DNA of 64,000 nt, from contig JASTWF010000033.1 in the NCBI GenBank assembly GCA_030390025.1, positions 3,474,001 to 3,538,000 of the forward strand. Direction: 5' to 3'. The translations under genes were made by a program, and so were the position numbers. The notes beneath the pieces were generated by a model, which was not told where the DNA came from, ran no database searches, and saw nothing but the letters and a program-made list of their open reading frames with translations. Below, one piece after another: positions 1 to 16,433 of this stretch. This DNA is from Squalus acanthias (lineage: Eukaryota). How positions within the stretch are numbered: position 1 is the stretch's first letter; each line of letters begins with the position of its first letter.

Positions 1-3000
1 GAGGAGAGTAGCAGACTTCAGGAGCACACAGACAGACTGGTGAAATGTAGTAAACAGTGAGGAGAGTAGCAGACTTCAGGAGCACACAGACAGACTGGTG
101 AAATGTAGTAAACAGTGAGGAGAGTAGCAGACTTCAGGAGCACACAGACAGACTGGTGAAATGTAGTAAACAGTGAGGAGAGTAGCAGACTTCAGGAGCA
201 CACAGACAGACTGGTGAAATGTAGTAAACAGTGAGGAGAGTAGCAGACTTCAGGAGCACACAGACAGACTGGTGAAATGTAGTAAACAGTGAGGAGAGTA
301 GCAGACTTCAGGAGCACACAGACAGACTGGTGAAATGTAGTAAACAGTGAGGAGAGTAGCAGACTTCAGGAGCACACAGACAGACTGGTGAAATGTAGTA
401 AACAGTGAGGAGAGTAGCAGACTTCAGGAGCACACAGACAGACTGGTGAAATGTAGTAAACAGTGAGGAGAGTAGCAGACTTCAGGAGCACACAGACAGA
501 CTGGTGAAATGTAGTAAACAGTGAGGAGAGTAGCAGACTTCAGGAGCACACAGACAGACTGGTGAAATGTAGTAAACAGTGAGGAGAGTAGCAGACTTCA
601 GGAGCACACAGACAGACTGGTGAAATGTAGTAAACAGTGAGGAGAGTAGCAGACTTCAGGAGCACACAGACAGACTGGTGAAATGTAGTAAACAGTGAGG
701 AGAGTAGCAGACTTCAGGAGCACACAGACAGACTGGTGAAATGTAGTAAACAGTGAGGAGAGTAGCAGACTTCAGGAGCACACAGACAGACTGGTGAAAT
801 GTAGTAAACAGTGAGGAGAGTAGCAGACTTCAGGAGCACACAGACAGACTGGTGAAATGTAGTAAACAGTGAGGAGAGTAGCAGACTTCAGGAGCACACA
901 GACAGACTGGTGAAATGTAGTAAACAGTGAGGAGAGTAGCAGACTTCAGGAGCACACAGACAGACTGGTGAAATGTAGTAAACAGTGAGGAGAGTAGCAG
1001 ACTTCAGGAGCACACAGACAGACTGGTGAAATGTAGTAAACAGTGAGGAGAGTAGCAGACTTCAGGAGCACACAGACAGACTGGTGAAATGTAGTAAACA
1101 GTGAGGAGAGTAGCAGACTTCAGGAGCACACAGACAGACTGGTGAAATGTAGTAAACAGTGAGGAGAGTAGCAGACTTCAGGAGCACACAGACAGACTGG
1201 TGAAATGTAGTAAACAGTGAGGAGAGTAGCAGACTTCAGGAGCACACAGACAGACTGGTGAAATGTAGTAAACAGTGAGGAGAGTAGCAGACTTCAGGAG
1301 CACACAGACAGACTGGTGAAATGTAGTAAACAGTGAGGAGAGTAGCAGACTTCAGGAGCACACAGACAGACTGGTGAAATGTAGTAAACAGTGAGGAGAG
1401 TAACAGACTTCAGGAGCACACAGACAGACTGGTGAAATGTAGTAAACAGTGAGGAGAGTAGCAGACTTCAGGAGCACACAGACAGACTGGTGAAATGTAG
1501 TAAACAGTGAGGAGAGTAGCAGACTTCAGGAGCACACAGACAGACTGGTGAAATGTAGTAAACAGTGAGGAGAGTAGCAGACTTCAGGAGCACACAGACA
1601 GACTGGTGAAATGTAGTAAACAGTGAGGAGAGTAGCAGACTTCAGGAGCACACAGACAGACTGGTGAAATGTAGTAAACAGTGAGAGAGTAGCAGACTTC
1701 AGGAGCACACAGACAGACTGGTGAAATGTAGTAAACAGTGAGGAGAGTAGCAGACTTCAGGAGCACACAGACAGACTGGTGAAATGTAGTAAACAGTGAG
1801 GAGAGTAGCAGACTTCAGGAGCACACAGACAGACTGGTGAAATGTAGTAAACAGTGAGGAGAGTAGCAGACTTCAGGAGCACACAGACAGACTGGTGAAA
1901 TGTAGTAAACAGTGAGGAGAGTAGCAGACTTCAGGAGCACACAGACAGACTGGTGAAATGTAGTAAACAGTGAGGAGAGTAGCAGACTTCAGGAGCACAC
2001 AGACAGACTGGTGAAATGTAGTAAACAGTGAGGAGAGTAGCAGACTTCAGGAGCACACAGACAGACTGGTGAAATGTAGTAAACAGTGAGGAGAGTAGCA
2101 GACTTCAGGAGCACACAGACAGACTGGTGAAATGTAGTAAACAGTGAGGAGAGTAGCAGACTTCAGGAGCACACAGACAGACTGGTGAAATGTAGTAAAC
2201 AGTGAGGAGAGTAGCAGACTTCAGGAGCACACAGACAGACTGGTGAAATGTAGTAAACAGTGAGGAGAGTAGCAGACTTCAGGAGCACACAGACAGACTG
2301 GTGAAATGTAGTAAACAGTGAGGAGAGTAGCAGACTTCAGGAGCACACAGACAGACTGGTGAAATGTAGTAAACAGTGAGGAGAGTAGCAGACTTCAGGA
2401 GCACAGACAGACTGGTGAAATGTAGTAAACAGTGAGGAGAGTAGCAGACTTCAGGAGCACACAGACAGACTGGTGAAATGTAGTAAACAGTGAGGAGAGT
2501 AGCAGACTTCAGGAGCACACAGACAGACTGGTGAAATGTAGTAAACAGTGAGGAGAGTAGCAGACTTCAGGAGCACACAGACAGACTGGTGAAATGTAGT
2601 AAACAGTGAGGAGAGTAGCAGACTTCAGGAGCACACAGACAGACTGGTGAAATGTAGTAAACAGTGAGGAGAGTAGCAGACTTCAGGAGCACACAGACAG
2701 ACTGGTGAAATGTAGTAAACAGTGAGGAGAGTAGCAGACTTCAGGAGCACAGACAGACTGGTGAAATGTAGTAAACAGTGAGGAGAGTAGCAGACTTCAG
2801 GAGCACACAGACAGACTGGTGAAATGTAGTAAACAGTGAGGAGAGTAGCAGACTTCAGGAGCACACAGACAGACTGGTGAAATGTAGTAAACAGTGAGGA
2901 GAGTAGCAGACTTCAGGAGCACACAGACAGACTGGTGAAATGTAGTAAACAGTGAGGAGAGTAGCAGACTTCAGGATCACACAGACAGACTGGTGAAATG

Positions 3001-15000: not shown

Positions 15001-16433
15001 AGGAGAGTAGCAGACTACAGGAGCACAGACAGCCTTGTGAAATTTAGTAAAGAGTGAGGAGAGCAGCAGAATTCAGAAGCATACAGACAGACTGGTGAAA
15101 TGTAGTAAACAGTGAGGAGAGTAGCAGACTTCAGGAGCACACATACAGACTGATGAAATGTAGTAAACAGTGAGGAGAGTAGCAGACTTCAGGATCACAG
15201 ACAGGTTGGTAAAATGTAGTAAACAGTGAGAAGAGTAGCAAACTTCAGGAGCACACAGACAGACTGCTGAAATGTATGTATACAGTGAGGAGAGTAGCAG
15301 ACATCAGGAGCACAGACAGACTGGTGAAGTGTCGTAAACAGTGAGGAGAGGAGCAGACATCAGGAGCACACAGACAGACTGGTGAAATGTAGTATACAGT
15401 GAGGAGAGTGGCAGACTTGAGGAGCACACAGACAGACTGGTGAAATGTCGTAAACAGTGAGGCGAGTAGCAGACTTCAGGAACACACAGACAGACTGGTG
15501 AAATTTATTCAACAGTGAGGAGAGAAGCAGACTTCAGGAGCACAGACAGACTGGTGAAATGTAGTAAACAGTGAGGAGAGCAGCAGAATTCAGAAGCACA
15601 CAGACAGACTGGAGAAATGTAGTAAACAGTGGGGAGAGTAGCAGACTTCAGGGGCAGACAGACAGACTGGTGAAATGTCGTAAATAGTGAGGGGAGTAGC
15701 AGACTTCAGGAACACACAAACAGACTTTTGAAATGTAGTAAACAGTGAGGAGAGTAGCAGTCTTCAGGACAACAGACAGACTGTTGAAATGTAGTAAACA
15801 GTGAGGAGAGTTGCATTCTTCAGGAGCACACAGACAGACTGGTGAAATGTAGTAAACAGTGAGGAGAGTCGCAGACTTCAGGAGCACAGACAGAGAGACT
15901 GGGGAAATGTAGTAAACAGTGAGGAGAGTAGCAGACTTCAGGAGCACAGACAGATGGGTGAAATGTAGTAAACAGTGAGGAGAGTAGCAGACTTCCAGAA
16001 CATACAGACAGACTGGTGAAATGTAGTAACCAGTGAGGAGATTAGCAGACTTCAGGAGCACACAGACAGACTGGTGAAATATTGTAAACAGTGAGGAGAG
16101 AAGCAGACTTCAGGAGCACACAGGCAGACTGGTGAAATTTAGTAAACAGTGAGGAGAGTAGTAGGCTTCAGGAGCACAGACGGACTGCTGAAATGTAGTA
16201 AACATTGAGGAGAGTGGCAGACTTCAGGAGCCCACAGACAGACTGCTGAAATGTAGTAAACAGTGAGGAGAGTAGCAGACTTCAGGAACACACAGACAGA
16301 CTGGTGAAATGTAGTAAACAGTGAGGAGAGTCGCAGACTTCAGGAACACACAGACAGTCTGGTGAAATATAGTAAACAGTGAGGAGAGTAACAGACTTCA
16401 GGAACACACAGACAGACTGGTGAAATACAGTAA
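1..16433 (+). repeat. 58-bp tandem satellite array (~280 units; runs off the left edge)
   Basis: Unit GAGGAGAGTAGCAGACTTCAGGAGCACACAGACAGACTGGTGAAATGTAGTAAACAGT repeats head-to-tail. It is nearly invariant over the first ~3 kb and increasingly diverged (substitutions, 56-bp variants lacking one CA) towards 16.4 kb. Higher-order periods of ~2775 and ~1891 bp are visible. Confidence 0.99.

What the first reader, a model, noticed from the sequence alone, without database searches (positions are those of the whole stretch)
1..16433. The 58-bp satellite looks like an amplified piece of CR1 LINE reverse-transcriptase coding sequence
Seen: reading the unit from AAT GTA GTA AAC gives N-V-V-N-S-E-E-S-S-R-L-Q-E-H-T-D-R-L-V-K-(TG.). 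This aligns, with one codon gap, to the segment right after FADDTKLG in this window's own CR1s: VNNEEDARRQQSDLDRLGEW (~62395-62335, minus) and VGSEEETRKLQSDLDRLGDW. V, N, EE, R, Q and DRL are in register, and the final TG falls at the conserved Trp codon. Inference: a short GAAATG microhomology at both ends of the segment (G-N-V codons upstream, V-K-W codons downstream) seeded slippage or rolling-circle amplification into an array of more than 16 kb. TE-derived satellites are known, but origin from the catalytic core of a LINE ORF is unusual, and transcripts could yield anti-LINE small RNAs.
Basis: partly seen in the sequence, partly recalled or inferred. Interest (0 to 1): 0.78.

Follow-up and report, generated by a model that had tools for sequence, protein, structure and literature searches.

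The report
Shark satellite cut from CR1 retrotransposon
This long run of 58-base repeats in a shark-type genome was copied from a short piece of a jumping gene's reverse-transcriptase coding region, which makes it a clear new example of a known way for satellite DNA to arise.

Summary
The array is real: 1-16433, 58-bp unit, about 285 copies. Its CR1 origin holds. A profile of 117 CR1 RT segments places the unit's peptide just after FADDTKLG, and 0 of 1000 shuffles score as well. The window's own CR1s are not the parent: their DNA match is not significant. One unit laid on contigs of four public runs reveals the closer source. Some contigs carry 3 extra bases at 86-94% identity. Loose ends read T-K-L-G-N-V-V-N-S-E upstream and A/T-D-x-x-Q-M-K downstream. 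GAAATG lies at both ends; chance about 0.2%. Best model: a GAAATG-bounded 61-bp stretch was duplicated, one codon was lost, and the array grew by block duplication; a 48-unit block sits in tandem at 98.8%. Tandem joints occur in three differently labelled organisms, so this is a shared family. The right edge meets an LTR, not parental CR1. Satellites from LINE ORF2 and birth at short flanking repeats are described in print. This scan noted three other LINE-derived satellites elsewhere in this genome. Small-RNA and centromere roles are untested.

The parts
1..16433 (+). 58-bp satellite array, about 285 units, open at the window's left end; + strand is CR1 sense
43..100 (+). Reference unit (= consensus); 44-103 reads as CR1 RT codons after FADDTKLG, one codon short; no CpG, no CENP-B box
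100..105 (+). GAAATG at the unit junction, the 6-bp repeat seen at both ends of the source segment
43..2937 (+). Homogeneous zone: 46 of the first 50 units identical to consensus (0.03% substitutions)
6627..12175 (+). Tandem duplication of a 48-unit block (6627-9400 / 9401-12175): 98.8% alike, 134 of 167 variant sites shared, against 9 of 280 at offset 47
12465..15500 (+). Duplication with a 33-unit lag (12465-13609 / 14356-15500, 20 units compared): 97.1% alike, 74 of 108 variant sites shared; outer zone 6.1% from consensus
16423..16433 (+). Last, partial unit; the array stops mid-unit against an LTR, with no CR1 downstream flank
16434..25088 (-). Neighbour, not part of the satellite: decayed LTR element. 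LTRs at 16434-16974 and 24519-25088 are 82% alike, with no clear target-site duplication; RNase H-, integrase- and env-like pieces; a CR1 fragment inside
   Evidence: domains read from motifs by eye; Pfam named none of the 4 non-CR1 ORFs scanned
62335..62393 (-). Homologous RT segment in a window CR1 of another subfamily (36 of 56 aligned bases, 3-base gap); not the parent
20798..20856 (-). Homologous RT segment in the CR1 fragment inside the LTR element; not the parent
25090..26130 (+). Decayed CR1 fragment beyond the LTR element, same strand as the unit; its homologous segment reads V-S-C-E-E-N-T-K, so not the parent

Best explanation
The array belongs to a high-copy satellite family of an elasmobranch, born from about 61 bp of the RT coding region of one CR1 subfamily, the stretch that follows FADDTKLG. 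SHOWN: the unit is homologous to that stretch; a near-identical form with 3 more bases and CR1 RT flanks exists in public runs; GAAATG sits at both ends; the array holds tandem block duplications and an edge-ward divergence gradient. INFERRED: the first dimer arose when the two GAAATG hexamers mispaired (slippage or microhomology-mediated repair). One codon was lost in the founder, before or soon after. Further growth came from unequal exchange or break-induced copying of multi-unit blocks, with recent homogenisation inside the array. The repeat is non-coding (58 is not a multiple of 3, and stops follow within one unit) and most likely is heterochromatic DNA without a function tied to its RT origin.
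For: Profile test: 0 of 1000 shuffles reach the unit's score, and the match is in the right register. tblastn of two CR1 RT proteins against the window also hits array units at the post-FADD residues, + strand, though only at E 1.4-9.5. laid 3063, 177, 72 and 639 contigs of runs X1, X7, X10 and X13. A 3-base insertion behind place 58 shows in 15, 4, 5 and 4 contigs. 13 of the 32 records printed (of 4126) span the 63 bases with 66 letters and 4-9 differences (86-94%). Upstream loose ends translate T-K-L-G-N-V-V-N-S-E (X7, 7 contigs; X13, 5), K-L-G-N-V-V-N-S-E (X1, 20) and G-N-V-V-K-S-E-E-D-S (X13, 2). Downstream loose ends translate K-*-A-D-T-R-Q-M-K (X7 and X10, 1 contig each) and x-T-D-K-*-Q-M-K-F-N (X1, 17 contigs, agreement 0.59). 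Translations are by eye. A chimaera CR1 protein reads FADDTKLGRVVNSEED...W-A-D-M-W-Q-M (P0133), so the coding form is old and the direction is LINE to satellite. Six-base homology at a random junction occurs in 206 of 95,284 and 59 of 33,087 cases in two window CR1s. Block duplications. Birth at 5-10-bp flanking repeats is the Haber and Louis model as cited in PMC6947457 (passages).
Against: No single contig was printed whole from FADD to W-Q-M; the upstream and downstream flanks come from different contigs, 24 of 84 loose-end rows were shown, and several have low agreement (0.53-0.68) or are unreadable. The downstream rows carry a stop or another change at the Trp codon, and two rest on one contig each. 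One search does not say whether the 66-letter records are CR1-flanked or 61-bp tandem units. No protein of the exact parent subfamily turned up: 0 of the 365 proteins then held had L-G-N-[VI]-V; the nearest were P0226 and P0133. DNA similarity to the window's CR1s is not significant. The birth site was not seen.
Confidence: 0.9

Rival explanations
1. The resemblance to CR1 RT is chance; the unit arose from unrelated DNA such as a decayed CA/GA simple repeat.
For: DNA scores against the window's three CR1s lie within the shuffled range (23, 49, 28 of 300). The unit holds a CACACAGACAGAC run.
Against: Protein profile test 0 of 1000; contigs at 86-94% identity with a 3-base insertion and CR1 RT flanks in the right frame. 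Rfam gives one chance match at E 0.74 for 1-600. No dispersed copy lies in the rest of the window (best BLAST hit 19 bases).
Confidence: 0.02
2. The direction is reversed: a CR1 subfamily took up a unit of an existing satellite, as argued for Tribolium CR1-3_TCa and TCAST.
For: Such a case is argued in bioRxiv 10.1101/2024.12.02.626372 (passages). The tandem form dominates the DNA runs (share running on unlike: 0, 0.01, 0 in X1, X7, X13).
Against: The segment is an in-frame, conserved part of RT in chimaera, skate, ray and bird CR1 proteins. The satellite form lacks a codon and breaks the frame at each junction.
Confidence: 0.01
3. The CR1 origin is right, but the array was born at this locus inside a CR1 copy whose 5' part lies left of the window and whose 3' part was lost or displaced by the LTR element.
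For: A CR1 fragment on the same strand begins right after the LTR element, at 25090.
Against: That fragment begins upstream of FADD and carries its own, different post-FADD segment. The array ends mid-unit at the LTR. Tandem 58-base joints occur in 40, 6, 4 and 25 contigs of four runs from three labelled organisms, so the family is not confined to this individual.
Confidence: 0.1
4. The origin is as above, and the satellite has a function: it is centromeric, or its antisense transcripts give small RNAs that silence the parent CR1 subfamily.
For: Very high summed depth in DNA runs and presence in several organisms (the tool warns that depth is no copy number). Unit and parent form are 86-94% alike, enough for small-RNA pairing (inference). 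CR1-related centromeric repeats are listed for chicken (PMC6947457 table). The block duplications resemble higher-order repeats (PMC9974502 passages).
Against: The array lies among mixed minisatellites, LINE and LTR debris, 28 kb from a zinc-finger exon. It has no CENP-B box and no CpG, and no unusual DNA fold (z +1.29). None of this excludes a centromeric role in a fish.
Confidence: 0.12

Closest known systems
Chicken HinfI (SCR1) satDNA and CR1-C-related Cen repeats (Li and Leung 2006; Shang 2010), seen only as cited in PMC9659126 and PMC6947457 (passages)
   Same: Tandem repeat that holds CR1 sequence, including part of ORF2.
   Different: HinfI holds CR1 3' UTR plus partial ORF2. Here the whole 58-bp monomer is RT coding sequence, bounded by one hexamer.
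PROsat (Phodopus) and Pvc20 (harbour seal), from LINE-1 ORF2; listed in PMC9659126 (passages and table row)
   Same: Tandem repeat related to LINE ORF2.
   Different: L1 rather than CR1; in PROsat only a small region of the monomer is 88% like ORF2.
Haber and Louis (1998) model of minisatellite birth, as cited in PMC6947457 (passages; primary paper not seen)
   Same: [quoted passage not shown]
   Different: Here the product reached satellite scale (over 16 kb, shared by several organisms) and the template is a LINE enzyme domain.
Stork (Mycteria americana) predicted proteins KAK4831295.1 and KAK4829493.1
   Same: A tandem array whose unit is CR1 ORF2 sequence from just after FADD (73% identity over 89 aa to an avian CR1 ORF2).
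   Different: 138-aa period (414 bp inferred), bird lineage, independent origin; seen as protein only.
Earlier notes of this scan on the same genome: 28-bp satellite from an L2 RT motif; 49-bp and 51-bp satellites from the CR1 ORF2 end
   Same: Short LINE ORF2 pieces amplified to arrays of 10-60 kb.
   Different: Other units and other parts of ORF2; unchecked AI notes.

Membership tests
Satellite DNA | Long head-to-tail array of a non-coding monomer | tested here: met
   16.4 kb, about 285 units, stops in the tandem reading
Satellite DNA | Concerted evolution: homogeneous interior, diverged edge, block amplification | tested here: met
   0.03%, 4.1% and 6.1% substitutions in units 0-49, 50-209 and 210-283; 48-unit tandem duplication
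Satellite DNA | High copy number beyond one locus | tested here: inconclusive
Satellite DNA | Heterochromatic location | not testable with these tools
   needs FISH or H3K9me3 data
TE-derived satellite (LINE ORF2 type) | Monomer homologous to a defined part of a TE, above chance | tested here: met
   0 of 1000 shuffles; 86-94% records with a 3-base insertion and CR1 RT loose ends
TE-derived satellite (LINE ORF2 type) | Direction TE to satellite | tested here: met
   segment conserved in frame in chimaera, batoid and bird CR1 RTs; the satellite lacks a codon
TE-derived satellite (LINE ORF2 type) | One continuous parental copy, or the birth site, in hand | tested here: inconclusive
   flanks seen only as separate loose ends; no exact parent among 365 proteins or; right edge meets an LTR
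Repeat born at short flanking direct repeats (Haber-Louis type) | 5-10-bp direct repeat at both ends of the source segment, equal to the array junction | tested here: met
   GAAATG in upstream loose ends of X1 and X13 (one base differs in X7) and in downstream loose ends of X7 and X10; background about 0.2%
CR1 LINE (is the array itself an element?) | ORF2 with endonuclease and RT, 3' tail | tested here: not met
   20 codons per unit, no catalytic motif
Centromeric satellite | CENP-A binding | not testable with these tools
   needs ChIP or CUT&Tag
Centromeric satellite | CENP-B box (mammal-type only; motif recalled) | tested here: not met
   0 matches on either strand of the array; not required in fish
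piRNA / siRNA source locus | Antisense small RNAs with ping-pong signature | not testable with these tools
   no small-RNA reads on hand

The most novel reading that the evidence does not exclude
In this shark lineage LINE ORF2 is a standing source of major satellites: units of 58 bp here and, by unchecked notes, of 28, 49 and 51 bp, each cut out at short direct repeats. Because this unit stays about 90% like a CR1 subfamily that is still plentiful, the arrays serve as a massively amplified antisense small-RNA source against the RT region of their own parent: a satellite that silences the element it came from.
Probability: 0.06. Interest if true: 0.75.

Novelty: new member of a known kind. Interest (0 to 1): 0.33.

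Why it matters
It is an unusually legible satellite birth: the source, both breakpoints, the seeding hexamer and the lost codon can all be read, and the family is shared by several organisms, so it can be dated on a phylogeny against its parent CR1. My searches found no paper that describes this repeat or a shark satellitome; the library lacks most subscription journals, and Repbase and Dfam could not be searched. If the other LINE-derived satellites noted in this genome hold up, sharks would be a good system to measure how often LINE coding DNA seeds satellites. The kind of event is already known.

Tried and rejected
A 22-base unit motif found 0 matches in viral, metagenome and GTDB genome contigs. 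No whole genome is held, so the left boundary, copy number and chromosome spread are unknown. Protein searches for the exact parent subfamily gave only relatives; the metagenome search with P0226 gave two distant loci at 42-44%. The window's three CR1s were rejected as parents. RNA: no RNA holder listed on record. Run X10 is only guessed to be RNA; there 1 of 72 contigs was 99% or more alike and 29% ran on into unlike sequence, which I do not count as evidence on expression. No listed run held half the words of 16000-17400 (best 0.32), and I laid reads on one unit only, so the array/LTR junction is not confirmed by reads. Rfam: one chance match. DNA folding: no special structure. tblastn of 15 LINE ORF2 proteins against five other arrays of the window gave nothing below E 0.2, but the 58-mer itself reached only E 0.06 in that test, so it cannot exclude a similar origin for them. 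Look-ups of earlier findings by sequence, near and relatives were empty. Papers: passages only of PMC9659126, PMC10620051, PMC6947457, PMC4992247, PMC12628747, PMC9974502, bioRxiv 2024.12.02.626372 and 2025.06.08.657570; PMC4992247, PMC10620051 and the 2025 preprint gave nothing on this repeat. No supplements were read; repeat tables in supplements of shark genome papers could list this unit.
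Full report
Observation. The window opens inside a tandem array that runs to 16433: period 58, 284.9 copies, 91% matches. Segmenting from base 43 gives 284 whole units and a stub. 232 of 284 are 58 bp, 38 are 56 bp (loss of one CA), and none is 61 bp. Bases 44-103 translate N-V-V-N-S-E-E-S-S-R-L-Q-E-H-T-D-R-L-V-K, followed by TG. 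The window's long CR1 matches skate, ray and bamboo-shark RT proteins at 73-84% and unnamed records at up to 87%, so the genome is an elasmobranch; earlier notes of the scan call it a shark.

Is the match more than chance? Against the window's three CR1 copies the DNA match is weak. The best is 36 of 56 aligned bases with a 3-base gap at 62393-62335, and 23, 49 and 28 of 300 shuffled units score as well. At protein level it is significant. I built a profile from 117 RT segments out of the 120 proteins, which had been found with the window's CR1 and not with the unit. The tandem unit scores 6.9 bits at profile positions 40-66, directly after FADDTKLG; the minus strand scores -0.8; 0 of 1000 dinucleotide shuffles reach 6.9, the best being 6.6. 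Pfam places this region inside RVT_1. The unit starts four codons after FADD and holds no catalytic residue.

The closer source. A search with 16000-17400 listed 20 runs of 8 studies and six labelled organisms, holding 7-32% of the sampled words. I laid one unit (43-105) on four of them: X1 and X10 (organism A), X7 (B) and X13 (E), at 80% likeness. 3063, 72, 177 and 639 contigs were laid. Two forms appear. The tandem form shows as joints that go back 58 bases (from 100 to 43 in 40, 4, 6 and 25 contigs). The second form has 3 more bases (15, 5, 4 and 4 contigs); 13 of the 32 records printed, of 4126, cover the 63 bases with 66 letters and 4-9 differences, that is 86-94%. The loose ends, translated by eye, are CR1 RT. 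Upstream: T-K-L-G-N-V-V-N-S-E (X7, X13), K-L-G-N-V-V-N-S-E (X1), G-N-V-V-K-S-E-E-D-S (X13). Downstream: K-*-A-D-T-R-Q-M-K (X7, X10; one contig each) and x-T-D-K-*-Q-M-K-F-N (X1; 17 contigs, agreement 0.59). Loose ends before place 65 end in GAT or AAT, so the lost codon is most likely the Asp of E-E-D, which the window's CR1 at 62393 and a chimaera CR1 protein (P0133) also have. Limits: 24 of 84 loose-end rows were shown, some are unreadable, and the two flanks were never printed on one contig. No protein of the exact subfamily was found among 365 held or.

Mechanism. The upstream loose ends of X1 and X13 contain G-GAAATG-TA (X7 differs at one base); the downstream ones of X7 and X10 contain T-GAAATG-AG; the array junction is T-GAAATG-TA. 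The junction is therefore a splice of the two ends through exactly six shared bases, 61 bases apart in the longer form. In two window CR1s, 206 of 95,284 and 59 of 33,087 possible junctions of 40-80-bp units have six or more shared bases, about 0.2%. Such repeats are still common along an ORF2 (28 in 2.4 kb), so many seeds exist. I infer a first duplication by slippage or microhomology-mediated repair, the model of Haber and Louis as cited in PMC6947457 (passages) and discussed in PMC9659126 and PMC12628747 (passages). Whether the codon was lost before or after cannot be told. Later growth left direct marks. A 48-unit block stands twice in tandem (6627-9400 / 9401-12175; 98.8%; 134 of 167 variant sites shared, against 9 of 280 at offset 47). 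A second duplication has a 33-unit lag (97.1%). Substitutions rise from 0.03% in the first 50 units to 4.1% and then 6.1% toward the edge. This fits unequal exchange or break-induced copying with recent homogenisation inside the array. Rolling-circle amplification is neither shown nor excluded.

Boundary. The array stops mid-unit at the TG of an LTR (16434-16974). A second LTR at 24519-25088 is 82% alike, and the flanks show no clear target-site duplication. Between them, on the minus strand, lie decayed RNase H-, integrase- and env-like pieces and a CR1 fragment (read from motifs by eye; Pfam named only the CR1 frame among five scanned). The CR1 fragment that follows at 25090 is on the unit's strand but has its own, different post-FADD segment. 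With tandem joints in three labelled organisms, this is best read as one array of a shared family and not as a shown birth site.

Function. The unit has no CpG and no CENP-B box, no special fold and no Rfam match beyond chance. Centromeric or small-RNA roles could not be tested. I put them together at about 0.12, and the specific anti-LINE silencing role at about 0.06.

Comparison. PMC9659126 (passages) says satellites mostly come from LTRs, TIRs and UTRs, but lists ORF-derived cases: chicken HinfI from CR1 3' UTR plus partial ORF2, and PROsat and Pvc20 from L1 ORF2. I saw these only as cited. The profile search also returned stork predicted proteins that are 138-aa tandem repeats of CR1 ORF2 from just after FADD, an independent case. 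Earlier unchecked notes on this genome describe 28-, 49- and 51-bp satellites from LINE ORF2. Searches for shark or elasmobranch satellites found no description of this repeat; supplements were not read.

Verdict. Observation confirmed, origin supported (0.9), microhomology seed likely. It works like, and passes the testable features of, a TE-derived satellite. It is a new member of a known kind, notable for how clearly its birth can be read. Interest 0.33.

Noticed in passing
window 16434-25088 (-): Decayed LTR element with LTRs only 82% alike and no clear target-site duplication. RNase H-like and integrase zinc-finger-like pieces occur twice (22265-21570 and 21196-19473), with a CR1 inserted in the second RNase H and an env TM-like frame at 18010-17492; probably two nested or recombined proviruses. 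A primer-binding site-like stretch lies at 24501-24518 (tRNA type not tested).
   Followed up: partly
P0220 / P0366 (NCBI KAK4831295.1, KAK4829493.1, Mycteria americana): Predicted 4625- and 5329-aa proteins are 138-aa tandem repeats of CR1 ORF2 sequence: most likely a CR1-RT-derived tandem array of about 414 bp called as a gene.
   Followed up: partly
joints from 86 to 43: A 44-base step back appears in X1 (5 contigs), X13 (4) and X10 (1): a shorter variant unit shared by two labelled organisms; not seen in this window's array.
   Followed up: no
loose end behind 97: The same 67-letter loose end, with a one-base loss, occurs in runs of organisms A and B: possibly one orthologous CR1 copy.
   Followed up: no
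window 1-16433: Substitutions in the array are transversion-rich (287 transitions, 358 transversions, duplicated blocks not collapsed), in line with a CpG-free consensus.
   Followed up: partly
window 44713-45314: 84-bp period exon encoding C2H2 zinc fingers with HTGERPF linkers.
   Followed up: partly
window 30251-43780, 45604-47031, 52414-57428, 58104-60234, 60341-61486: Dense patchwork of other tandem repeats (57, 80-82, 67 and 107 bp); their origin was not resolved by a weak tblastn test.
   Followed up: partly
window 38454-38948 / 39954-40448; 47250 / 50730; 53217 / 55097: TRF rows repeat at offsets of 1500, 3480 and 1880 bases, which suggests local segmental tandem duplications.
   Followed up: no
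window 26130-30100: CT-rich then GA-rich degenerate simple repeats face each other around about 27370, a large imperfect inverted arrangement, with a 26-bp minisatellite at 28364-28868.
   Followed up: no
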